Below the pieces are notes generated by a model. The model searched no databases. It was not told where the DNA came from and was given only the letters and a program-made list of their open reading frames with translations. Source: Peduovirus P24A7b. Taken from it: a stretch of DNA of 32,848 bases. This document shows, piece after piece, positions 8,491 through 32,706 of this stretch. A program made the position numbers and the translations under genes. How positions within the stretch are numbered: the stretch's first letter is position 1; each line of letters opens with the position of its first letter. The stretch lies in the sequence record NC_049390.1. One strand, 5' to 3'.

Positions 8491-8920
8491 TGCCGTCACG
8501 GTGCTGAAAACTAACCCCGATATGCTGCGGATATTCGTGGATAACGGGAGTATTGCCTCCACGCTGGCGGCGTCGTTGTCATTCGAAAAGCGTTACACGC
8601 TCAATGTGATTGTGACCGACTTTACCGGTGATTTTGACCTGCTCATCGTGCCGGTGCTGGCGTGGCTGCGGGAAAATCAGCCCGACATCATGACCACCGA
8701 CGAAGGCCAGAAAAAAGGTTTCACGTTTTATGCAGACATCAACAATGACAGCAGCTTTGATATCAGCATCAGCCTGATGCTGACCGAGCGCACGCTGGTC
8801 AGTGAGGTGGACGGCGCGCTGCATGTGAAGAATATCCCGGAACCCCCGCCGCCGGAGCCGGTCACTCGCCCGATGGAGCTTTATATCAATGGCGAACTGG
8901 TGAGTAAGTGGGATGAATGA
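8453..8920 (+). CDS. R: Tail completion protein R
   Basis: 155 aa, matches P2 gpR in sequence, length and position. Confidence 0.9.
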   Translation: MLKPDSLRRALTDAVTVLKTNPDMLRIFVDNGSIASTLAASLSFEKRYTLNVIVTDFTGDFDLLIVPVLAWLRENQPDIMTTDEGQKKGFTFYADINNDSSFDISISLMLTERTLVSEVDGALHVKNIPEPPPPEPVTRPMELYINGELVSKWDE

Positions 8921-9365
8921 GTTTAAGCGTTTTGAAGACCGGCTGACCGGACTGATTGAATCGCTGTCACCGTCAGGGCGTCGACGACTGAGCGCCGAAC
9001 TGGCGAAACGTCTGCGTCAGAGTCAGCAGCGTCGGGTGATGGCACAGAAAGCCCCGGACGGCACACCCTACGCGCCACGCCAGCAGCAGAGCGCCAGAAA
9101 AAAGACCGGTCGCGTTAAGCGAAAAATGTTTGCGAAACTTATCACCAGTCGTTTTTTGCATATCCGCGCCAGCCCGGAACAGGCATCAATGGAATTTTAC
9201 GGCGGGAAGTCGCCGAAAATCGCCAGTGTGCATCAGTTCGGTCTGTCGGAAGAAACCCGGAAAGACGGTAAGAAAATTGATTATCCGGCGCGTCCTCTGC
9301 TCGGCTTTACCGGTGAGGATGTGCAGATGATTGAAGAGATTATCCTGGCTCACCTTGAGCGTTAG
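8913..9365 (+). CDS. S: Tail completion protein S
   Basis: 150 aa, matches P2 gpS. Confidence 0.9.
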   Translation: MNEFKRFEDRLTGLIESLSPSGRRRLSAELAKRLRQSQQRRVMAQKAPDGTPYAPRQQQSARKKTGRVKRKMFAKLITSRFLHIRASPEQASMEFYGGKSPKIASVHQFGLSEETRKDGKKIDYPARPLLGFTGEDVQMIEEIILAHLER

Positions 9366-9436: not shown

Positions 9437-10222
9437 TTATGAGTGATTTTTATTTGATGCTTTGTATTCTACAACCTTCTTATTGGCGTAAAGGAATTTT
9501 GTATATGACAGGAATATAACCAGACCTGAAATGAAATAGATGAGGGATATTATTAATAATGCTTTTTTTTGGCTGTTATTATCTTTAATTTCCTGACTTA
9601 ACCATTCCGAGTCCTCCTCGTTTAGCCGTAAGAGCTTATTGCAGGCGATCTCAGGAAGTGTGTCTTTTATAAATATGTTTCGTAGCCTCTTGCAATCGGC
9701 AAGGCTATAAGTTTTATTGAATTCAACTGTTTTATTGTTGAAGGATAAAAGAACTTTGTCACTATAAACATAGTACATCATATTTTTATATGGTATGCCT
9801 ATGGCATCTCTTACTATAGCGGATTGTTTGTTGTGTATATAACATGCGAAGAGAATATAAATAATGCTGGACAGAATTACAATTATTGTTTTAATTATGT
9901 GTGGTGGTTTTGTTATGTCACCCCAGAAGCGAGTAAGAAAAAAATACGATGTTTTTAGTTTTCCATCAATCAGCCCCTGCTGTATCATTCTCACATCTTC
10001 GATGCCTGATACATTGATTCCGTTAATTATTTTAAATAGTTGAATGTCGCGCCATTTTTTGTCGAGCATTTTTAACTTTCTGTCTGAATACTCAAAATTG
10101 AAATGATGTGCAATAAACCTCATAAGATTACTTTTACCAAAGGTAATAAATGTTAATGCTATTAATAAAAATAGATACAAAGAGATAAACCACCACGCAT
10201 TAGTCACATTATCACTGAACAT
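9437..10222 (-). CDS. Moron: hypothetical polytopic membrane protein (3 predicted TM helices), function unknown
   Basis: 261-aa ORF on the strand opposite the flanking late genes; visibly AT-rich; AGGAG Shine-Dalgarno 6 nt upstream of the ATG; hydrophobic segments near aa 9-29, 112-132 and 224-246; occupies the S-V position (orf30 in P2). Confidence 0.8.
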   Translation of the reverse strand: MFSDNVTNAWWFISLYLFLLIALTFITFGKSNLMRFIAHHFNFEYSDRKLKMLDKKWRDIQLFKIINGINVSGIEDVRMIQQGLIDGKLKTSYFFLTRFWGDITKPPHIIKTIIVILSSIIYILFACYIHNKQSAIVRDAIGIPYKNMMYYVYSDKVLLSFNNKTVEFNKTYSLADCKRLRNIFIKDTLPEIACNKLLRLNEEDSEWLSQEIKDNNSQKKALLIISLIYFISGLVIFLSYTKFLYANKKVVEYKASNKNHS

Positions 10223-10258: not shown

Positions 10259-10305
10259 ATGAATCCAGATAGCATAACTTTTATATATTGTGCAATCTCA
10301 CACGC

Positions 10306-10941
10306 ATGAACACTCTCGCAAATATTCAGGAACTCGCGCGCGCACTGCGCAACATGATTCGTACCGGCCTTGTCGTCGAAACCAACCTTAAAGCCGGTCG
10401 CTGCCGTGTGCAGACCGGTGGCATGTGCACTGACTGGCTTCAGTGGCTGACCCATCGTGCCGGACGTTCGCGCACATGGTGGGCACCTTCCGTGGGGGAA
10501 CAGGTGCTGATTCTGGCTGTGGGCGGTGAACTCGACACGGCGTTCGTTCTGCCGGGGATTTATTCCGGCGATAACCCCGCGCCGTCTGCGTCGGCGGATG
10601 CCCTGCATATCCGTTTCCCTGACGGGGCGGTGATTGAGTATGAACCCGAAACCAGTGCACTCACGGTAAGCGGAATTAAAACGGCCAGCGTGACGGCTTC
10701 TGATTCTGTTACTGCCACGGTGCCGGTGGTCATGGTGAAAGCATCAACCCGCGTCACCCTGGACACACCGGAGGTGGTTTGCACCAACAGGCTGATTACC
10801 GGCACGCTGGAAGTGCAGAAGGGCGGGACGATGCGCGGCAACATTGAACACACCGGCGGTGAACTCTCATCAAACGGTAAGGTACTGCATACCCATAAAC
10901 ACCCCGGCGACAGCGGCGGCACAACCGGGAGCCCTCTATGA
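10306..10941 (+). CDS. V: Baseplate spike/assembly protein V
   Basis: Trimmed to ATG at 10306 (MNTLANIQELARALRNMIRTGLV...), 211 aa as for P2 gpV. Confidence 0.93.
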   Translation: MNTLANIQELARALRNMIRTGLVVETNLKAGRCRVQTGGMCTDWLQWLTHRAGRSRTWWAPSVGEQVLILAVGGELDTAFVLPGIYSGDNPAPSASADALHIRFPDGAVIEYEPETSALTVSGIKTASVTASDSVTATVPVVMVKASTRVTLDTPEVVCTNRLITGTLEVQKGGTMRGNIEHTGGELSSNGKVLHTHKHPGDSGGTTGSPL

Positions 10942-15356: not shown

Positions 15357-15934
15357 TGGCTTTCAGAATGAGTGCAGAAGCACAAACTATCCGCGTTTTC
15401 AATTTACTTGATGGAACCAATGAATTTATTGGCGAAAGTGATGCATATATTCCACCGTATACTGGCCTGCCTGCAAACAGTACAGATATTGCACCACCTG
15501 ATATTCCTGCTGGTTATGCAGCCGTTTTCAATGCAGATGAAATGAAATGGGAGTTGATGGAAGATCATCGCGGAAAGACTGTCTACGAAACGAAAACGGG
15601 AGCAGCCATTTATATTTCTGAACTTGGCGCATTACCTCCAGACGTGACAGCCATTTCCCCGGATGGGGATTATCAGAAATGGAACGGAAATGCGTGGGTG
15701 AATGATGAGAATGCAGAGCGTGATGCACTTGTCAGAGCGGCGGAGTCTCAGAAGAAAGAGCAGATTGCATATGCCGGTGAAATTATTGCCACGCTGCAGG
15801 ATGCTGTCGATTTAGATATGGCTACCGAGGAAGAAAAGTTAAGTCTGACACACTGGAAAAAATACCGTGTGCTACTGAATCGCGTTCAGCCGGAAGATGC
15901 TCCGGATATAGAATGGCCGGAAATGCCGCGATAA
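15356..15934 (+). CDS. G: Tail fibre assembly chaperone G
   Basis: 192-aa ORF directly after H with ATGG overlap; conserved tail-fibre-assembly N-terminus; the variable C-terminus co-varies with the H tip. Confidence 0.88.
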
Positions 15935-16190
15935 ATTGTATTAGCTCGGATGTGAGTTTACACATCTATAGCACAGAGTAAAACCTAATCTGGCTGTCCG
16001 CTCTGTGCTAGGAGCGGACATTACCAAGTAACATGCCTTAATCAAAAGGAAATGGTTAATATATGCCATCATTGTTTGAAAAATACGCAGTCATATATTG
16101 CTATGAACATTGTTGGTGCATTAACTTGCTTAAGAAACTACAATTAAGCATCATAAAATACTCTTATGACTTTTAAGGCTCTACCGTATC

Positions 16191-16598
16191 ATGGCTAAGC
16201 GGATTCCTGGTGTTAGTAAAGAATGGTCTAACTATCTCCTTTGTTTATTATTACATATGTCTTTACCTCTCTTACCTTTGGGGTTCGAGACACTTGTGCG
16301 TTCCGATCACTTGCCATCAATACAAACATTAAACATTACAGCGGCGTTTTATGCGATCTCGATAGGGCTTTCTTCTAAGAACGTTGCTATGTTTGGTTTG
16401 GGTATATTCGTGAGCATTTGTTTCTCTGTTGTATTTGGGATTGTTTCTTCAAATCCTAATTCTGATCCTAATCTTAATTTTAATGATAACTTGTATTTTT
16501 ATTCTCCAATTGCGTGTATTGTTGCTATATTTGTTATACATGCATGTGAACGATATAACAGGCATGTTGCTGATTGTACACCATTTTTTGAGTTTTAA
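16191..16598 (+). CDS. Hotspot cargo gene 1: small polytopic membrane protein (135 aa), function unknown
   Basis: AT-rich ORF at the G-FI (P2 Z/fun) position; 3-4 hydrophobic helices; Asn/Pro-rich loop NPNSDPNLNFNDN; weak Shine-Dalgarno, so the exact start is uncertain (alternative ATG at 16255). Confidence 0.65.
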   Translation: MAKRIPGVSKEWSNYLLCLLLHMSLPLLPLGFETLVRSDHLPSIQTLNITAAFYAISIGLSSKNVAMFGLGIFVSICFSVVFGIVSSNPNSDPNLNFNDNLYFYSPIACIVAIFVIHACERYNRHVADCTPFFEF

Positions 16599-16607
16599 GG
16601 GGGTGCT

Positions 16608-17099
16608 ATGATTGATACAATTATCCCAGTAATACTATCAATTCTCCCGGCAATACTATCTATATTTAGCTTAGTAGCTGTTTCTATAGGTGCATTAGTA
16701 TCTATCAGGTCTGTTAAAAAAAGACGTGAAATAGAAGTTCAGCTTTTTAATGAGATAATAAATCAACAAATTAAACAAACTAAAAGCAACCGTAAAAAGG
16801 ATCTTGAAAATAGTGTTAATGAAATAGAAAATGAACTCAAGAGAAGAGTTGATATTTTGAATAAAATGCAAAAAGATCTAGAAGCAGTTTCAGAGAACAA
16901 ATACTATTTTGATAAAGCAAAATATCTTCGAAATGTCAAGTATGGAGAGTATTTATTAGAGATAAATGAAGCTGTGAATAATATTGATAATAAAAACAAA
17001 CACTTACTAAATAACGCTCTTAATCAAAGCTCTGAGATTGGAAAAGTAAGATATCTTGGAAGAATAACAAAGGAAGCACTGGAAAAAACAGTAGGCTGA
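16608..17099 (+). CDS. Hotspot cargo gene 2: membrane-anchored charged/coiled-coil protein (163 aa), function unknown
   Basis: Strong Shine-Dalgarno (AAGGGGG) 7 nt upstream of the ATG; 9-nt gap from gene 1; N-terminal hydrophobic helix (aa 4-32) then a K/E/N-rich heptad-like region; AT-rich. Confidence 0.8.
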   Translation: MIDTIIPVILSILPAILSIFSLVAVSIGALVSIRSVKKRREIEVQLFNEIINQQIKQTKSNRKKDLENSVNEIENELKRRVDILNKMQKDLEAVSENKYYFDKAKYLRNVKYGEYLLEINEAVNNIDNKNKHLLNNALNQSSEIGKVRYLGRITKEALEKTVG

Positions 17100-17125
17100 T
17101 CATTTTTTCCGCTCGTAATAGATAA

Positions 17126-17156
17126 ACTCAAAGGTTCTTTTTGAGAGCCTTTGAGT
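17126..17156 (+). terminator. Hairpin downstream of the cargo operon
   Basis: ACTCAAAGG / CCTTTGAGT 9-bp perfect stem with a 13-nt loop, 27 nt after the stop at 17099; only a short T-run follows. Confidence 0.4.
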
Positions 17157-17343
17157 TTCAATCTTACCAATATTACTCACCATTTCTTTAGCAGCAATTT
17201 GGGGACTATAACTTCTACTTCTTGCTGTGAGTTCAACCGATGGATACAACACATTGGCTAAAACGCCCTGTGGGTGATTCATAGTCTAGCGTTTGGACTC
17301 CGTAAATTCACAGTTGGAAACTGAGCGAGTACAAATCAAGGCC

Positions 17344-17370
17344 GGCGGGCTGATTGCCCGCCTTTTCTTT
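17344..17370 (+). terminator. Intrinsic terminator insulating the hotspot from the FI late operon
   Basis: GGCGGGC-tgatt-GCCCGCC stem-loop followed by TTTTCTTT. Confidence 0.7.
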
Positions 17371-17470
17371 ACCGGTGGTTGTGCTGTTGATTAGCCAACC
17401 GGGACAAATAGCCTGACATCTCCGGCACAACTGAAAATACCACTCACCCATTAACCACGGAGTTAAACGG

Positions 17471-18661
17471 ATGAGTGACTATCATCACGGCGTGCAGGTG
17501 CTGGAGATTAACGACGGCACCCGCGTCATTTCCACCGTATCCACGGCCATTGTCGGCATGGTCTGCACAGCCAGCGATGCGGATGCGGAAACCTTCCCCC
17601 TCAATAAACCGGTGCTGATTACCAATGTGCAGAGCGCAATTGCAAAGGCTGGTAAAAAAGGCACGCTGGCGGCGTCGTTGCAGGCCATCGCTGACCAGTC
17701 AAAACCGGTCACCGTTGTCGTGCGTGTTGAAGACGGCACAGGCGACGACGAAGAAACGAAACTCGCGCAGACCGTTTCCAATATCATCGGCACCACCGAC
17801 GAAAACGGTCAGTACACCGGACTGAAAGCCCTGATGGGGGCTGAGTCGGTTACCGGCGTTAAACCGCGCATTCTTGGTGTGCCGGGGCTGGACACCAAAG
17901 AGGTTGCCGTCGCACTGGCATCGGTATGCCAGGAACTGAATGCATTCGGGTATATCAGCGCATGGGGCTGTAAAACCATTTCCGAGGTGAAAGCCTACCG
18001 CCAGAATTTCAGCCAGCGTGAGCTGATGGTTATCTGGCCGGATTTCCTCGCATGGGATACGGTCACCAGTACCACCGCCACCGCGTATGCCACCGCCCGT
18101 GCGCTGGGGCTGCGCGCTAAAATCGACCAGGAGCAGGGCTGGCATAAAACGCTGTCCAACGTCGGGGTAAACGGTGTTACCGGCATCAGTGCATCTGTAT
18201 TCTGGGATTTGCAGAAGTCTGGCACTGATGCTGACCTGCTGAACGAGGCAGGCGTCACAACGCTGGTTCGCCGCGACGGTTTCCGTTTCTGGGGTAACCG
18301 TACCTGCTCCGATGACCCACTGTTCCTCTTTGAAAGCTACACACGCACTGCGCAGGTACTGGCCGACACGATGGCTGAGGCGCACATGTGGGCTATTGAT
18401 AAGCCCATCACCGCAACGCTGATTCGCGACATCATTGACGGCATCAATGCCAAATTCCGCGAACTGAAAAACAACGGTTATATCGTGGATGGCACATGCT
18501 GGTTCAGTGAAGAATCCAACGATGCGGAAACCCTCAAGGCCGGAAAACTGTATATCGACTACGACTATACCCCGGTGCCTCCCCTCGAAAACCTGACCCT
18601 GCGCCAGCGTATTACTTCAAGATACCTGGCAAGTCTGGTCACCTCGGTTAACAGCAATTAA
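17471..18661 (+). CDS. FI: Tail sheath protein
   Basis: 396 aa, MSDYHHGVQVLEINDGTRVISTVSTAIVGMV...; matches P2 gpFI. Confidence 0.95.
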   Translation: MSDYHHGVQVLEINDGTRVISTVSTAIVGMVCTASDADAETFPLNKPVLITNVQSAIAKAGKKGTLAASLQAIADQSKPVTVVVRVEDGTGDDEETKLAQTVSNIIGTTDENGQYTGLKALMGAESVTGVKPRILGVPGLDTKEVAVALASVCQELNAFGYISAWGCKTISEVKAYRQNFSQRELMVIWPDFLAWDTVTSTTATAYATARALGLRAKIDQEQGWHKTLSNVGVNGVTGISASVFWDLQKSGTDADLLNEAGVTTLVRRDGFRFWGNRTCSDDPLFLFESYTRTAQVLADTMAEAHMWAIDKPITATLIRDIIDGINAKFRELKNNGYIVDGTCWFSEESNDAETLKAGKLYIDYDYTPVPPLENLTLRQRITSRYLASLVTSVNSN

Positions 18662-27907: not shown

Positions 27908-30182
27908 AGCCTCAGGGCGTTTTGTCCCTCCGTCAGCATTTGCTGCAGGCACCGGTAAGGCGTTTACTGGTGCTTATGCATGGAACGCGCCACGCGAGGC
28001 TGTCGGGCGCGAAAGACCTCTTACACGTGACGAGATGCGTCAGGTGCAAGGTGTTTTATCCACGATTAACCGCCTGCCTTACTTTTTGCGCTCGCTGTTT
28101 ACTTCACGCTATGACTACATCCGGCGCAATAAAAGCCCGGTGCACGGGTTTTATTTCCTCACATCCACTTTTCAGCGTCGTTTATGGCCGCGCATTGAGC
28201 GTGTGAATCAGCGCCATGAAATGAACACCGACGCGTCGTTGCTGTTTCTGGCAGAGCGTGACCACTATGCGCGCCTGCCGGGAATGAATGACAAGGAGCT
28301 GAAAAAGTTTGCTGCCCGTATCTCATCGCAGCTTTTCATGATGTATGAGGAACTCAGCGATGCCTGGGTGGATGCGCATGGCGAAAAAGAATCGCTGTTT
28401 ACGGATGAGGCGCAGGCTCACCTCTATGGTCATGTTGCTGGCGCTGCACGTGCTTTCAATATTTCCCCGCTCTACTGGAAAAAATACCGTAAAGGGCAGA
28501 TGACCACGAGGCAGGCATATTCTGCCATTGCCCGCCTGTTTAACGATGAGTGGTGGACTCATCAGCTTAAAGGCCAGCGTATGCGCTGGCATGAGGCGTT
28601 ACTGATTGCTGTCGGGGAGGTGAATAAAGACCGTTCTCCTTATGCCAGTAAACATGCCATTCGTGATGTGCGTGCACGCCGCCAGGCAAATCTGGAATTT
28701 CTTAAATCGTGTGACCTTGAAAACAGGGAAACCGGCGAGCGCATCGACCTTATCAGTAAGGTGATGGGCAGTATTTCTAATCCTGAAATTCGCCGGATGG
28801 AGCTGATGAACACCATTGCCGGTATTGAGCGTTACGCCGCCGCAGAGGGTGATGTGGGGATGTTTATCACGCTGACCACGCCGTCAAAGTATCACCCGAC
28901 ACGTCAGGTCGGAAAAGGCGAAAGTAAAACCGTCCAGCTTAATCACGGCTGGAATGATGAGGCATTTAATCCAAAGGATGCGCAGCGTTATCTCTGCCGT
29001 ATCTGGAGCCTGATGCGCACGGCATTCAAGGATAATGATTTACAGGCCTACGGTTTGCGTGTTGTTGAACCACACCACGACGGAACGCCGCACTGGCATA
29101 TGATGCTTTTTTGTAATCCACGCCAGCGTAACCAGATTATTGAAATCATGCGTCGCTATGCGCTCAAAGAGGATGGCGACGAAAGAGGAGCCGCGCGAAA
29201 CCGTTTTCAGGCAAAACACCTTAACCGGGGCGGTGCTGCGGGATATATCGCGAAATACATCTCAAAAAACATCGACGGCTATGCACTGGATGGTCAGCTC
29301 GATAATGATACCGGTAGGCCGCTGAAAGACACAGCTGCTGCTGTTACCGCATGGGCGTCAACGTGGCGCATTCCGCAATTTAAAACGGTTGGTCTGCCGA
29401 CAATGGGGGCTTACCGTGAACTACGCAAATTGCCTCGCGGCGTCAGCATTGCTGATGAGTTTGACGAGCGCGTCGAGGCTGCACGCGCCGCTGCAGACAG
29501 TGGTGATTTTGCGTTGTATATCAGCGCGCAGGGCGGGGCAAATGTCCCGCGCGATTGCCAGACTGTCAGGGTCGCCCGTAGCCCGTCGGATGACGTTAAC
29601 GAGTACGAGGAAGAAGTCGAGAGAGTGGTCGGCATTTACGCGCCGCATCTCGGCGCGCGTCATATTCATATCACCAGAACGACGGACTGGCGCATTGTTC
29701 CGAAAGTGCCGGTCGTTGAGCCTTTGACTTTAAAAAGCGGCATCGCCGCGCCTCGGAGTCCTGTCAATAACTGTGGAAAGCTCACCGGTGGTGATACTTC
29801 GTTACCGGCTCCCACACCTTCTGAGCACGCCGCAGCCGTGCTTAATCTGGTTGATGACGGAGTTATTGAATGGAATGAACCGGAGGTCGTGAGGGCGCTC
29901 AGGGGCGCATTAAAACACGACCTGCGAACGCCAAACCGTCAGCAGAGAAACGGAAGCCCGTTAAAACTACATGAAATTGCACCATCGGCCAGACTGACCC
30001 GGTCGGAAAGAATGCAAATTACCCGTATCCGCGTTGACCTTGCTCAGAACTGTATCAGGCCGCAGCGATGGGAGTTTGAGGCGCTGGCGCGTGGCGCGAC
30101 CGTAAATTATGACGGAAAAAAATTCACGTATCCGGTCGCTGATGAGTGGCCGGGATTCTCAACAGTAATGGAGTGGAAATGA
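27897..30182 (+). CDS. A: Rolling-circle replication initiator A
   Basis: Trimmed to ATG at 27897 (MAVKASGRFVPPSAFAAGTGK...), 761 aa as for P2 gpA; contains the twin-tyrosine motif GYIAKYISK (about 29244-29270). Confidence 0.95.
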   Translation: MAVKASGRFVPPSAFAAGTGKAFTGAYAWNAPREAVGRERPLTRDEMRQVQGVLSTINRLPYFLRSLFTSRYDYIRRNKSPVHGFYFLTSTFQRRLWPRIERVNQRHEMNTDASLLFLAERDHYARLPGMNDKELKKFAARISSQLFMMYEELSDAWVDAHGEKESLFTDEAQAHLYGHVAGAARAFNISPLYWKKYRKGQMTTRQAYSAIARLFNDEWWTHQLKGQRMRWHEALLIAVGEVNKDRSPYASKHAIRDVRARRQANLEFLKSCDLENRETGERIDLISKVMGSISNPEIRRMELMNTIAGIERYAAAEGDVGMFITLTTPSKYHPTRQVGKGESKTVQLNHGWNDEAFNPKDAQRYLCRIWSLMRTAFKDNDLQAYGLRVVEPHHDGTPHWHMMLFCNPRQRNQIIEIMRRYALKEDGDERGAARNRFQAKHLNRGGAAGYIAKYISKNIDGYALDGQLDNDTGRPLKDTAAAVTAWASTWRIPQFKTVGLPTMGAYRELRKLPRGVSIADEFDERVEAARAAADSGDFALYISAQGGANVPRDCQTVRVARSPSDDVNEYEEEVERVVGIYAPHLGARHIHITRTTDWRIVPKVPVVEPLTLKSGIAAPRSPVNNCGKLTGGDTSLPAPTPSEHAAAVLNLVDDGVIEWNEPEVVRALRGALKHDLRTPNRQQRNGSPLKLHEIAPSARLTRSERMQITRIRVDLAQNCIRPQRWEFEALARGATVNYDGKKFTYPVADEWPGFSTVMEWK

Positions 30183-30634
30183 TGGCAAAAATTCACGAGG
30201 TAAAGCTGCACGCCAAATATTTTGACCTTGTGCTGGAAGGAAAGAAACGCGCAGAGTTTCGGAAAAATGACCGTAATTATGAGCGCGGGGACACGTTGAT
30301 TTTGCATGAATGGGTACAGGGTGTGTATACGGGGCGAAAGGTTGAAGCCCGGATAACAGATGTTACTGACCTGTCAGACTGGCTGGAAGATTATGTCTTG
30401 CTAAGTATTGAGCTGCTTAATACAGGCGCATATGAGATTGTGAACTGGAAAGAACTTAGTGAGCGTGGTCTGGTATTCAGAATTAATCATGAAATTATGC
30501 ATCAGCTCGGCCTTTCTGTTATGTATGAACCAGAGACGGGGATGTCTGGCGGGGCAATGGTTGCCACGGATGGAGCATGGAACTATTCAGATGAACAGAT
30601 GGAGCGTGCACAGCAAAACGGGTGGCTTGGATAA
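30179..30634 (+). CDS. ASCH/DUF3850-like domain protein with a C-terminal extension (about 151 aa)
   Basis: N-terminal about 75 aa (MAKIHEVKLHAKYFDLVLEGKKRAEFRKNDRNYERGDTLILHEW...) carries the ASCH-type G-x-K-x-x-E-x-R motif; start overlaps the A stop (ATGATG, start at 30179 or 30182). Confidence 0.7.
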   Translation: MMAKIHEVKLHAKYFDLVLEGKKRAEFRKNDRNYERGDTLILHEWVQGVYTGRKVEARITDVTDLSDWLEDYVLLSIELLNTGAYEIVNWKELSERGLVFRINHEIMHQLGLSVMYEPETGMSGGAMVATDGAWNYSDEQMERAQQNGWLG

Positions 30635-30981: not shown

Positions 30982-31069
30982 AGCTAACAACTTACAAATA
31001 TTCAAAAGTAAGCTTCCTGTTGCTAACATAAGGTCGATTTTTTATGTGGATGATGCAAAAAGGATAGCT

Positions 31070-31801
31070 ATGGATACTGTAATCGCTTTTCTATCACTCG
31101 CTTTTTTCGTTGCTTTTTTCATCGGGTTAATCAAACCATCACTGGTGCGGATGCCAAACCGTAAACGTGCAAGTGCGGTTTATCTCGGAGGAGGTTTTGT
31201 ATTGAGCATAATTGGTTCAATACTCTATCCAACAGAAAAAAGCCAGCCAGTTGCTAAAACTGAAACATCAACCGTTGCAGAACACCAAGTCCAAAAAACA
31301 TTCGAATATGGTGGAAAAACACTCAAGGAATATCGGAACGAGCCAAAGAAAACTCGACACGATATTGTAAATAGTTACATTGATTTTAAGGAAGTGCCAG
31401 TCACCGCATCAGATGCATTTTATGCCTGCATGAGTGAATATACTTTTACCAAAGATGATGAGTTGAAACTCGGTGATGTTCTTGGATGGTGCTTTAATGA
31501 TTATGAAAAAGATCCGCAATCACTAAACAATAAAATCAACCTTGATACATTTCAGAGTAATTTTAGTGGTTGGGATGGTTCTTATCGACCATTGGAAAAG
31601 TTAATTAAAGAGAATATGAACGATGATTCATCTTATAAACATGTGTCAACAGTGTATCATTTAATCCTGAATAAAGACCCTCACGCCATTGTGAAAACCA
31701 CATTTCGCGGTACTAATGCCTATGGTGGTGTCGTGAAGCAAACAATAGCAGCGCGTGTTAATGTGAAAACGGGTGAAATAGTTTCGATACTAAATAATTG
31801 A
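31070..31801 (+). CDS. Hotspot cargo: two-TM membrane-anchored protein with about 190-aa soluble domain, function unknown
   Basis: Trimmed from the GTG at 31046 to the ATG at 31070 (AAGGA Shine-Dalgarno); hydrophobic helices at aa 3-22 and 36-52; AT-rich; at the A-to-cos position (tin/old in P2). Confidence 0.75.
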   Translation: MDTVIAFLSLAFFVAFFIGLIKPSLVRMPNRKRASAVYLGGGFVLSIIGSILYPTEKSQPVAKTETSTVAEHQVQKTFEYGGKTLKEYRNEPKKTRHDIVNSYIDFKEVPVTASDAFYACMSEYTFTKDDELKLGDVLGWCFNDYEKDPQSLNNKINLDTFQSNFSGWDGSYRPLEKLIKENMNDDSSYKHVSTVYHLILNKDPHAIVKTTFRGTNAYGGVVKQTIAARVNVKTGEIVSILNN

Positions 31802-32007: not shown

Positions 32008-32706
32008 ATGAAGTATTGTGGGATAGCTTTAATAATATGTCTTTGCTTGTTTATGTTCGCATTTGGTTTTGTGTTGGGTGGAGTTCAATGGGCATGGGGC
32101 GAGAGTGAAAATAATAGCAAGGTCGCATTTTGGACAATGCTAGGAGGGTGGGTGTCAGGATTGGCTACTCTCGCGGCTGTGGGGGTTTCATTATTTACAA
32201 GTTATTATGCGATGATTTCAGGCAAAGAGAAAGTTGACGTTGTTTTTGCGCCTATATATACGACCTCTACGGCAAAAAAAGCAGATAAGCTTTCATTGCA
32301 AGATTTGGCTAATATCAAAGTGACAAATTTACACGGTGTGAAGTGTACTATTGTTAATGTTTATATGAAGTTTAGTGATGTTAAGGAACCATTAAAGATT
32401 AATAACCTTAAACAGGGAGGTAAGCCAATACCTTATACGCTATGTAATATAAGCGATATGTGGGAGTTTGCATTTGGGATGGAGTCAAACCCTAGATTGA
32501 GATTTCTATTGTCAGGGTTGAAATATGAAGGTCGACCATCCTTTAAAAAAGGGCATTTCATCATTGAAACAGCAATGAAACAATACAAGTTAAAGATGCG
32601 GAAAGACTTTCTCTCAATATTACAGAGTGAGTATCAAAGCATAGAGGAAGAATCTAAACGTAACTCAGTTAAATCAGGGTGGTCACGGTATAAAAAACTG
32701 AATTAA
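32008..32706 (+). CDS. Hotspot cargo: two-TM membrane-anchored protein with about 165-aa soluble domain, function unknown
   Basis: ATG at 32008 with AAGGA Shine-Dalgarno; hydrophobic helices at aa 5-25 and 40-64; very AT-rich; last gene before the cos end. Confidence 0.75.
   Translation: MKYCGIALIICLCLFMFAFGFVLGGVQWAWGESENNSKVAFWTMLGGWVSGLATLAAVGVSLFTSYYAMISGKEKVDVVFAPIYTTSTAKKADKLSLQDLANIKVTNLHGVKCTIVNVYMKFSDVKEPLKINNLKQGGKPIPYTLCNISDMWEFAFGMESNPRLRFLLSGLKYEGRPSFKKGHFIIETAMKQYKLKMRKDFLSILQSEYQSIEEESKRNSVKSGWSRYKKLN

What the first reader, a model, noticed from the sequence alone, without database searches (positions are those of the whole stretch)
15935..17470. Two-gene membrane cassette at the G-FI (P2 Z/fun) hotspot: candidate novel defence or exclusion module
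The conserved late operons are interrupted between tail-fibre chaperone G and sheath gene FI by about 1.5 kb of visibly AT-rich DNA. This is the Z/fun position in P2, a recognised integration point for anti-phage cargo in P2-like prophages. The insert carries a compact operon: a 135-aa polytopic membrane protein (16191..16598) and, 9 nt later behind a strong Shine-Dalgarno, a 163-aa protein with one N-terminal TM helix and a long charged heptad-like tail (16608..17099). A hairpin (17126-17156) and a canonical terminator (17344-17370) insulate the FI late promoter region. I recognise neither protein and see no catalytic motifs. A small integral-membrane protein paired with a membrane-anchored coiled-coil partner is an architecture typical of membrane-disrupting abortive-infection or superinfection-exclusion modules.
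Basis: partly seen in the sequence, partly recalled or inferred. Interest (0 to 1): 0.85.

Follow-up and report, generated by a model that had tools for sequence, protein, structure and literature searches.

The report
Mobile two-gene membrane cassette in P2 phage
A P2-like E. coli phage carries, in the slot where P2 has its fun(Z) exclusion gene, a small self-contained pair of uncharacterised membrane-protein genes; the same pair turns up in defence islands, other prophages and integron cassettes across many bacteria, which makes it a good but untested candidate anti-phage module.

Summary
Between tail-fibre assembly gene G (ends 15934) and sheath gene FI (starts 17471) lies about 1.35 kb of foreign AT-rich DNA (GC 0.29-0.40, flanks 0.52-0.58). 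This is the position of P2 fun(Z). The window appears to be the whole genome of Peduovirus P24A7b.

The insert holds two real, purifying-selected, tightly linked genes. A (16191-16598) is a 4-TM protein. B (16608-17099) has an N-terminal TM anchor and a cytoplasmic helical domain.

The pair, its ~230-nt upstream region and its downstream hairpin move together as a ~1.26-kb unit. I found it:
- beside Qat and CBASS genes in an E. coli island;
- in yejM-adjacent islands of Klebsiella (with Mrr) and Pectobacterium (with DarT);
- in a Morganella lambdoid prophage;
- directly after a type III RM in a MAG;
- as a true attC-flanked integron cassette in two Vibrio species.

A-like proteins form 668 clusters at 50% identity across many phyla, nearly always followed by a B-like partner.

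Nothing matches in Pfam, NCBIfam, PADLOC, PDB or BFVD. There is no detectable relation to RexAB, Fun(Z) or DS-13.

Verdict: a new protein-family pair of a familiar kind, membrane-acting cargo of defence hotspots. A defence role is plausible (about 0.5) but rests on context alone. The 17344-17370 terminator is P2 backbone, not cargo.

The parts
15940..16190 (+). Upstream non-coding region that travels with the cassette and is the likely promoter/regulatory region. It holds a 9-bp hairpin at 15996-16019. It also holds invariant GTGCAT (16116-16121), a 17-nt spacer, then invariant TACAAT (16139-16144), about 46 nt before the ATG.
   Evidence: The region aligns with the upstream regions of cassette copies from E. 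coli islands, Morganella, Klebsiella and Pectobacterium, and these blocks are invariant in 6 of 6. Hairpin z = -3.4. The generic sigma-70 scan gave only a weak site at 16130-16159, and the number of sites was not above shuffles. The promoter assignment is therefore inference.
16191..16598 (+). Gene A: a 135-aa four-helix inner-membrane protein, predicted N-in/C-in. Signature residues are PxxPxxxE in TM1 (P26, P29, E33), Y54, G59 and S62 in TM2, G83 in TM3, and H117-x-x-E120-R121...H125 at the cytoplasmic end of TM4.
   Evidence: ORF. AlphaFold2 pLDDT 90.2 with 4 helices. 58 homologue clusters. 668 representatives at 50% identity with E<=1e-3. The signature residues are conserved in at least 88% of 148 diverse members. 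dN/dS is 0.05-0.15. Matches phrog_22626, a family of unknown function.
16455..16490 (+). Lineage-specific 6-aa insertion (NSDPNL-type, imperfect repeat) in the periplasmic TM3-TM4 loop of A.
   Evidence: It appears in the alignment against all other homologues, which are 129 aa. Coordinates are approximate.
16599..16607 (+). 9-nt intergenic spacer GGGGGTGCT carrying the Shine-Dalgarno sequence for B. In distant homologues the two genes instead overlap or abut, which suggests translational coupling.
   Evidence: Window sequence. Gene spacing in L010-L012, L017 and L019-L021.
16608..17099 (+). Gene B: a 163-aa bitopic protein, predicted N-out/C-in. It has an N-terminal TM helix, a basic stop-transfer sequence (RSVKKRRE), a variable helical linker and a conserved C-terminal motif AL-x-Q-x-S-x-x-G-[KR]-x-x-Y (Q140, S142, G145, Y149).
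   Evidence: ORF. Hydropathy. Motif invariant in 12 diverse partners and found next to A in most loci. dN/dS is 0.18-0.40. The AlphaFold2 model is all-helical but low confidence, pLDDT 52.8.
16618..16659 (+). In-frame 21-nt tandem duplication, adding 7 aa (ILSILPA) inside the TM helix of B. It is specific to this P2 lineage.
   Evidence: Repeat family D2. Absent from all other B homologues. The 163-aa variant sat only in this same P2 slot in all 10 places shown.
17115..17167 (+). Strong hairpin just after B, the cassette's own terminator-like element. It has no canonical T-run.
   Evidence: Inverted repeat I2. dG -23.9 kcal/mol, z = -5.1. Conserved in the E. coli island copies and partly in Morganella.
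17201..17286 (.). Right junction: DNA shared neither with other cassette copies nor with the P2 backbone.
   Evidence: Cassette similarity ends at about 17200. P2 homology starts at 17287.
17287..17470 (+). Conserved P2 backbone, not cargo: intrinsic terminator 17344-17370, the Ogr activator site (about 17374-17402) and the pF transcription start (about 17445) ahead of FI.
   Evidence: 88-92% identical in the listed best hits among the 1030 E. coli genomes that match the insert query. Aligns with P2 17468-17651, where these features are annotated. Terminator scan and fold.

Best explanation
What it is (shown). The segment about 15940-17200 is a self-contained mobile unit of about 1.26 kb. It consists of a conserved upstream regulatory region, two tightly linked genes and its own terminator-like hairpin. 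It has landed in the fun(Z) slot of a P2-like phage.

What it encodes (shown and predicted). It encodes two inner-membrane proteins that are always inherited together. A is a 4-TM protein with a conserved polar site at its cytoplasmic face (HxxER...H) and a conserved PxxPxxxE motif in TM1. B is a single-pass protein whose helical domain and invariant Q-S-G-Y motif are predicted to face the cytoplasm.

How it most likely works (inferred). The two proteins form a heteromeric membrane complex that protects the lysogen, or any host of the cassette, against incoming phages. I commit to a RexAB-like logic:
1. B acts as the faster-evolving cytoplasmic sensor or regulator.
2. An infection cue releases or opens oligomeric A.
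3. A dissipates the membrane potential and aborts the infection.

The module being real and mobile is shown. The topology is predicted. The defence role and the gating mechanism are inferred from context and architecture only.
For: Real, co-inherited genes:
- Purifying selection on both (dN/dS 0.05-0.15 for A, 0.18-0.40 for B).
- The A family has 668 representatives, all small stand-alone proteins.
- A B-like, TM-anchored partner with the Q-S-G-Y motif lies directly downstream in Gamma-, Beta- and Alphaproteobacteria, Chloroflexi, cyanobacteria and a Stahlbacteria MAG.

Mobility as one unit:
- The flanking non-coding DNA is conserved between copies in unrelated sites.
- The Vibrio cholerae and V. 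anguillarum copies are attC-flanked integron cassettes.

Defence-type context:
- P2 fun(Z) slot.
- E. coli island directly upstream of KAP-NTPase/QatB/QueC/TatD (Qat) and SMODS+SLATT (CBASS) genes, or near NERD-UvrD and PLD-helicase genes.
- Morganella lambdoid prophage between Dam and the NinB/Q region.
- Klebsiella island with DUF4760 and Mrr_cat, and Pectobacterium integrase island with DarT plus an ADP-ribosylglycohydrolase.
- Directly after a type III RM mod/res pair in a MAG.
- Next to a PIN gene and near GAAD/GASH genes.
- PADLOC census of neighbours: PDC-S21, AbiEi, NsnA, PD-T4-2, type II/III RM.

Other points:
- Rare and patchy in E. coli, 2 of 5426 complete genomes, as expected for fast-turnover cargo.
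- Two-gene membrane defence modules with similar logic are experimentally known: RexAB, Sucellos (10.1101/2024.07.02.601686) and DS-13 (PMC13092281).
- B evolves 2-3 times faster than A and has a variable linker. In cyanobacteria it is fused to DUF1822, a putative protein-binding module seen in conflict systems (PMC8195603). This fits a sensor or adaptor role.
Against: - There are no experimental data, and no known defence, nuclease, NTPase or toxin domain. PADLOC, Pfam and NCBIfam are all negative. Fold searches return only generic helical bundles.
- Many copies sit between ordinary housekeeping genes. The island association is not universal and was not tested statistically against a background.
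- The promoter is not securely identified, so expression in the lysogen is unproven.
- The genes point the same way as the late operon and no T-run terminator follows G. They could be expressed late by read-through instead.
- The window's copy carries in-frame duplications, including 7 extra residues in B's TM helix. These could alter or impair function.
- B's structure model is unreliable. No complex model could be made, so the A-B interaction is itself an inference from linkage.
Confidence: 0.45

Rival explanations
1. Superinfection exclusion at the entry step. The A/B complex sits in the inner membrane and blocks genome injection of incoming phages without killing the cell, as T4 Imm/Sp, P22 SieA or the integron-borne Deva do.
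For: - Both proteins are small inner-membrane proteins.
- The pair is carried by temperate phages in moron slots.
- The slot's original occupant, fun(Z), is itself an exclusion gene against T5 (annotation).
- About a third of integron-borne resistance cassettes have TM helices, and Deva is proposed to block injection (10.1101/2024.07.02.601719).
Against: - Entry blockers are usually narrow, phage-lineage-specific and poorly conserved. This pair is conserved with invariant cytoplasm-facing motifs across many phyla. It also sits in chromosomal defence islands beside abortive systems.
- The periplasmic loops, which would meet the injection machinery, are the least conserved parts.
Confidence: 0.15
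2. Addiction or stabilisation module: a membrane toxin (A) held in check by a membrane-anchored antitoxin (B), or the reverse. Its primary role is to stabilise the mobile elements, integron arrays and islands that carry it. Any phage defence would be incidental.
For: - Strict two-gene linkage with overlapping or abutting genes.
- Presence as cassettes in Vibrio chromosomal integrons, which are rich in toxin-antitoxin cassettes (10.1101/2024.07.02.601686).
- A neighbouring PIN toxin gene in one locus.
- Residence on prophages and islands.
Against: - No similarity to any toxin or antitoxin family.
- Known membrane toxins are mostly very short single-helix peptides. A is a 4-TM protein with about 11 near-invariant residues.
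- Neither protein has a DNA-binding domain for autoregulation.
- A frameshifted A next to an intact B exists (L039), so loss of A is tolerated. That says nothing about loss of B.
Confidence: 0.15
3. A non-defence accessory function: a small membrane transporter, channel or envelope-homeostasis factor (ion, metal or stress related) that benefits the host. It would be carried as a generic fitness moron, or be a late-expressed phage accessory acting during P2 lytic growth.
For: - Conserved His/Glu/Arg residues at the membrane face could bind a metal or conduct ions.
- Many copies lie among metabolic and transport genes rather than defence genes.
- The orientation is the same as the late operon, with no canonical terminator after G.
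Against: - Patchy, horizontally scattered distribution and extreme rarity within E. coli, 2 of 5426 complete genomes.
- Repeated placement in defence islands, prophage moron slots and integron cassettes.
- No match to any transporter or channel family or fold.
- It lies outside the phage lysis cassette, which is annotated about 7.6-9.4 kb in window coordinates.
Confidence: 0.15
4. The ORFs are chance reading frames in AT-rich junk DNA left by recombination at the hotspot.
For: - AT-rich DNA throws up many ORFs.
- Gene A is missed by gene callers in half of the contexts, and a 69-aa hypothetical protein attributed to Peduovirus P24A7b sits in A's cluster, which suggests A is only partly annotated there.
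Against: - Strong purifying selection.
- Hundreds of homologues across phyla with conserved motifs and conserved gene order.
- A confident 4-helix model.
Confidence: 0.01

Closest known systems
Lambda RexAB, and the RexAB-like Sucellos (SclAB) cassette of the Vibrio cholerae chromosomal integron
   Same: - A prophage- or integron-borne two-gene module.
- One partner is a small (about 135-145 aa) four-helix inner-membrane protein.
- It is constitutive lysogen cargo in a moron position.
- The proposed logic is the same: a sensor partner triggers a membrane effector.
   Different: - No sequence relation. hhalign probability is below 1% for A against RexB and for B against RexA. There is no Pfam RexA/RexB hit.
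- The partner here is a 117-163-aa membrane-anchored helical protein, not a soluble 279-aa RexA.
- The gene order is reversed, with the membrane protein first.
P2 Fun(Z)
   Same: It occupies exactly the same slot between G and the pF/FI region. It is AT-rich, non-essential lysogenic-conversion cargo. Fun(Z) blocks T5 (annotation).
   Different: Fun(Z) is a single 528-aa protein on the opposite strand. hhalign probability against A and B is below 1%, and there is no DNA similarity.
DS-13 ('TMO1') and DS-43 of the DefensePredictor screen (PMC13092281), and Csx28-type membrane-anchored helical effectors
   Same: DS-13 is a validated E. coli two-gene system made only of TM proteins, one with an N-terminal TM helix plus a helical cytoplasmic domain like B. 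DS-43 is a single protein with an N-terminal TM helix and a coiled coil.
   Different: hhalign probability is below 1% for all pairs tested. The DS-13 partner has 2 TM helices and 233 aa, not a 4-TM protein of about 130 aa. None of the conserved motifs is shared.
Kiwa (KwaA 4-TM + KwaB)
   Same: A four-helix membrane protein is paired with a second protein. Defence is triggered at the membrane.
   Different: PADLOC gave no hit for A or B; I assume from memory that PADLOC-DB v2 includes KwaA/KwaB models. From my knowledge of the family, KwaB is a large soluble DUF4868 protein. The size and architecture of the partner differ.
Integron gene cassettes encoding phage resistance (BRiCs; V. cholerae SCI systems)
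   Same: The Vibrio copies of this pair are genuine attC-flanked cassettes of about 1 kb. This is the size class in which many minimal defence systems were recently found.
   Different: The window copy has no attC sites.

Membership tests
RexAB-type exclusion system | RexB-family 4-TM protein (sequence or profile similarity to lambda RexB) | tested here: not met
   hhalign of the A family profile against lambda RexB gives probability 0.45%. No Pfam RexB hit at E<=1.
RexAB-type exclusion system | RexA-family soluble sensor partner | tested here: not met
   hhalign of the B profile against lambda RexA gives probability 0.15%. B is membrane-anchored and about half the size.
RexAB-type exclusion system | Infection-triggered loss of membrane potential that needs both genes | not testable with these tools
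   Needs infection assays with membrane-potential dyes.
P2 Fun(Z) | Homology to the 528-aa Fun(Z) protein | tested here: not met
   hhalign probability 0.08% for A and 0.24% for B. Only the genomic slot is shared.
Any system in PADLOC-DB v2.0.0 (which, from memory, covers Kiwa, Zorya, CBASS/Pycsar effectors, the PD-T4/T7/Lambda systems and the PDC candidates) | Significant match to a system protein HMM | tested here: not met
   A: no family at E<=1. B: only E about 0.3 noise hits to DpdH and LeoBC.
DefenseFinder systems newer than 2023 and unpublished catalogues | Match to their HMMs | not testable with these tools
   DefenseFinder models are not available here. Accession searches of the paper library (WP_071598983, WP_048266375) found nothing.
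DS-13 / DS-43 (DefensePredictor) | Sequence or profile similarity to WP_000387046.1, WP_001022716.1 or WP_001057122.1 | tested here: not met
   hhalign probabilities 0.82%, 0.03% and 0.82%.
Integron gene cassette | Promoterless ORF(s) bounded by attC recombination sites | tested here: not met
   The feature is met for the Vibrio cholerae (L019) and V. anguillarum (L020) copies, which have VCR-type attC ends at both sides. I saw no attC-like site around the window copy on reading the sequence and the repeat output; no pattern search was run on the window. The enterobacterial unit carries about 230 nt of its own upstream region.
Phage holin / antiholin or lysis accessory | Match to a holin family and location in the lysis cassette | tested here: not met
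   No holin family in Pfam or PHROGs. A matches phrog_22626, unknown function. The best BFVD holin match has E = 0.7. The P2 lysis genes lie about 7 kb upstream.
Toxin-antitoxin module | Similarity to a known toxin or antitoxin family; toxicity of one partner relieved by the other | tested here: inconclusive
   No family match. Toxicity and neutralisation cannot be tested with these tools.

The most novel reading that the evidence does not exclude
The pair defines a widespread, previously unnamed minimal immune system of about 0.9 kb built entirely of two small membrane proteins. A is a new kind of gated membrane effector with a conserved PxxPxxxE / HxxER...H site. B is a membrane-tethered cytoplasmic sensor. 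The module works across Proteobacteria, cyanobacteria, Chloroflexi and others, and is spread by P2-like and lambdoid phages, defence islands and integrons.
Probability: 0.3. Interest if true: 0.75.

Novelty: new variant of a known kind. Interest (0 to 1): 0.55.

Why it matters
If the pair is shown to protect against phages, it would add one of the smallest two-component defence systems known. It would be made only of membrane proteins with no recognisable domain. It would give a function to an unnamed family of several hundred sequence clusters that current tools (Pfam, NCBIfam, PADLOC) do not see and that gene callers often miss.

Its presence in a viable P2-like phage, in integron cassettes and in islands beside Qat, CBASS, DarT and RM genes also makes it a convenient case for studying how very small defence units move between element types with their own regulatory DNA.

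If it has no phenotype, it is one more hypothetical moron in a known hotspot.

Tried and rejected
- Family scans of A and B against PADLOC, Pfam, NCBIfam and PHROGs gave nothing informative. A hits phrog_22626, unknown function; all other hits are noise.
- PDB sequence profiles for both families gave nothing.
- The B model was too poor (pLDDT 52.8) to search with.
- hhalign against RexB, RexA, Fun(Z), DS-13 and DS-43 was negative in every case.
- Rfam on 15850-17480 gave no match.
- tblastn of A against the phage and plasmid collections gave no match. The source phage itself appears to be absent from that phage collection.
- Literature: the accession search found nothing. The integron and prophage defence papers I read describe no system with this architecture.
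- The generic promoter scan was not enriched over shuffles, so I rely on cross-copy conservation instead.
- The profile search with a wider B alignment added only 5 proteins, because the word index limits it.
- Considered and dropped: GtrA-like O-antigen flippase, SMR, CrcB and LrgA. These are small 4-TM families recalled from memory, and none appeared in the Pfam scan at E<=1.
Full report
**1. What is in the sequence**

- ORF listing confirms the two genes at the stated coordinates: A at 16191..16598 (135 aa) and B at 16608..17099 (163 aa), both on the + strand.
- A ends at TAA 16596-16598. The nine bases GGGGGTGCT then precede the B start codon.
- GC content drops to 0.29-0.40 between about 15800 and 17300. 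It is 0.52-0.58 in the sheath and tube genes and 0.46-0.52 in the fibre genes.
- The hairpin after B is real and strong: arms 17115-17138/17144-17167, dG -23.9 kcal/mol, z = -5.1 against shuffles.
- A terminator-like GC stem plus T-run lies at 17344-17370.

**2. Where the window comes from and where the insert ends**

- Exact-sequence look-ups place both proteins in "Peduovirus P24A7b". Its record length equals the window length of 32,848 bp.
- A 69-aa hypothetical protein of that phage sits in A's cluster, which suggests gene A is only partly annotated there. Gene callers miss A in half of the other contigs.
- The identical prophage sits next to pflB/focA in E. coli AR_0081.
- In phage P2 the order is G, a terminator, fun(Z) (528 aa, minus strand), the Ogr activator site, the pF start and FI. 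The insert therefore occupies the fun(Z) slot.
- Similarity to P2, and to the P2-like prophages of about a thousand E. coli genomes, resumes at window 17287.
- It follows that the terminator at 17344-17370, the activator site and pF are backbone. The foreign DNA is 15935-17286.
- Only 2 of 5426 complete E. coli genomes carry the cassette at any detectable similarity.
- The exact 163-aa B variant was in the same G-FI slot, with the same fibre genes, in all 10 places shown of the 25 contigs read. This points to one acquisition spreading with one phage lineage.

**3. The two genes are real and belong together**

- Selection: against copies from an E. coli island, Morganella, Klebsiella and Pectobacterium, dN/dS is 0.05-0.15 for A and 0.18-0.40 for B.
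- Structure of A: AlphaFold2 gives a confident four-helix model (pLDDT 90.2; helices 10-36, 44-61, 65-87, 99-127).
- Topology of A (prediction, not a result): the basic N-terminus, the SSKN turn and the basic C-tail suggest N-in/C-in.
- Size of the A family: a full HMM scan of 1.84 billion representatives finds 668 members at E<=1e-3 and 461 at 1e-10. The 150 listed are all small stand-alone proteins of 97-223 aa.
- Conserved residues in A: across 148 diverse members the near-invariant positions are P26, P29, E33, Y54, G59, S62, G83, H117, E120, R121 and H125.
- Architecture of B: a hydrophobic N-terminus, a basic RSVKKRRE stretch and a helical tail that is 36% charged.
- Structure of B: the model is all-helical but unreliable (pLDDT 52.8). 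A crude heptad test supports only residues about 64-98. That stretch is absent from most non-enterobacterial homologues.
- Conserved core of B: the TM anchor and the C-terminal motif AL-x-Q-x-S-x-x-G-[KR]-x-x-Y.
- Linkage: a partner of this type lies immediately downstream of A, often overlapping it by 1-4 nt. This holds in Pseudoalteromonas, Luteimonas, Photobacterium, Vibrio, Shewanella, Acinetobacter (degenerate motif), Duganella/Rugamonas, an Odyssella MAG, Dehalococcoidia, Prochloron and a Stahlbacteria MAG.
- Variants: in a cyanobacterium-like contig the B-like protein is fused to DUF1822. In a Verrucomicrobia and a Saprospiraceae contig the partner is less clearly related.

**4. It moves as a unit**

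- About 230 nt upstream of A and about 100 nt downstream of B, including the hairpin, are conserved between copies in unrelated sites.
- Invariant blocks include GTGCAT (16116-16121) and, 17 nt later, TACAAT (16139-16144), about 46 nt before the ATG. I read these as a promoter. This is inference, because the generic scan was not enriched.
- In V. cholerae and V. anguillarum the pair lies between VCR-type attC sites on about 1.2-kb contigs. It is a true integron cassette there.
- Around the window copy I saw no attC-like site or flanking repeat on reading the sequence and the repeat output; no pattern search was run on the window.
- The mechanism of movement in Enterobacterales is unknown.

**5. 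Context**

Copies with defence-type neighbours:
- E. coli island, directly upstream of KAP-NTPase/QatB/QueC/TatD and next to SMODS+SLATT genes (L003).
- E. coli island near NERD-UvrD and T5orf172 (L004), or near a PLD-helicase (L002).
- Morganella lambdoid prophages, between Dam and the NinB/antiterminator-Q region.
- A Klebsiella yejM-adjacent island with DUF4760 and Mrr_cat, and a Pectobacterium integrase island with DarT plus an ADP-ribosylglycohydrolase.
- Immediately after a type III mod/res pair in a MAG.
- Next to a PIN gene, and among IS elements near GAAD/GASH genes.

A PADLOC census of 80 neighbouring ORFs also hit PDC-S21, AbiEi, NsnA, PD-T4-2 and RM components.

Other copies lie between housekeeping genes. 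I did not test the enrichment against a background.

**6. What it is not**

- PADLOC, Pfam and NCBIfam give no significant hit. PHROGs gives phrog_22626, unknown function, for A.
- PDB sequence profiles are negative.
- hhalign probabilities are below 1% against lambda RexB and RexA, P2 Fun(Z), and the two-TM-protein system DS-13 and DS-43 of the DefensePredictor study.
- Rfam finds nothing.
- The papers on P2/P4 hotspots, integron defence cassettes and E. coli screens that I could read describe no system with this architecture. The RefSeq accessions appear in none of them.

**7. Most likely mechanism**

- Shown: a mobile, conserved, two-gene membrane module.
- Predicted: A is N-in/C-in with a conserved polar cluster at the cytoplasmic face. 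B is N-out/C-in, so its conserved motif faces the same compartment.
- Inferred: the two form a complex. B evolves faster, has a variable linker and is occasionally fused to a putative binding module, so it is the sensor or regulator. A is the effector, and it compromises the membrane barrier on infection.
- I give about 0.45 to this membrane-acting abortive defence model and about 0.6 to defence of any kind.
- Rivals: injection blocking (0.15), an addiction/toxin-antitoxin role (0.15), a non-defence membrane function or late phage accessory (0.15), and spurious ORFs (0.01, refuted by conservation).

**8. Caveats specific to this copy**

- The P24A7b lineage has a 21-nt in-frame duplication that adds 7 residues to B's TM helix (16618-16659).
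- It also has a 6-residue insertion in A's periplasmic loop.
- Both are fixed in the lineage, so they are probably tolerated. The cleaner test article may be the 129/156-aa island version.

**9. Novelty and score**

- The kind of object is familiar: small membrane-protein cargo in a prophage hotspot, probably protective.
- The protein families, their motifs and their breadth are not described in any resource I could query.
- I rate it a new variant of a known kind, interest 0.55. It is a solid, cheap-to-test candidate, not a surprise.

Noticed in passing
window 9437..10222 (minus strand): A second AT-rich insert (GC 0.33) lies between the S-like virion morphogenesis gene (8913..9365) and baseplate gene V (10288..10941). 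From memory this is the P2 orf30 slot. It encodes a 261-aa protein with about three hydrophobic segments and no PADLOC or Pfam match.
   Followed up: partly
window 31046..31801 and 32008..32706 (+ strand): Two AT-rich ORFs (251 and 232 aa, GC about 0.36) follow the replication gene and a DUF3850/ASCH gene (30146..30634). This is the classical old/tin defence hotspot of P2-like phages. Neither matches PADLOC or Pfam, so this phage carries three unannotated cargo loci.
   Followed up: partly
window 16618-16659 and about 16455-16490: Lineage-specific in-frame duplications lie inside both cassette genes: 7 aa within the TM helix of B and 6 aa in the TM3-TM4 loop of A. They are absent from every other homologue.
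   Followed up: yes
whole window; gene A 16191..16598: The window length equals the record length of Peduovirus P24A7b. A 69-aa hypothetical protein of that phage clusters with gene A, suggesting A is only partly annotated there. Gene callers missed A in about half of the related contigs, so this family is under-annotated.
   Followed up: yes
L001 21735..26768 (E. coli AR_0081 prophage copy): In strain AR_0081 the otherwise identical prophage has its tape-measure gene split by an IS21-family element (ISEc12 istAB). That copy is probably defective, although the cassette is intact.
   Followed up: no
L014 7462..8229; proteins P0075, P0076: In cyanobacterium-like contigs the B-type anchor and motif are fused to a DUF1822 domain, next to a PIN gene. 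DUF1822 is mentioned with ECF-sigma/caspase conflict systems in PMC8195603.
   Followed up: partly
L039 2842..3478: One Klebsiella-type metagenomic copy has gene A split into 90-aa and 107-aa ORFs, an apparent frameshift, next to an intact B.
   Followed up: no
L037/L038 and L040/L041: The Klebsiella and Pectobacterium copies sit in different islands inserted at the same chromosomal site, downstream of the NA37/DUF1414/DUF3413-sulfatase (yejM-like) genes. This suggests a shared integration hotspot.
   Followed up: no
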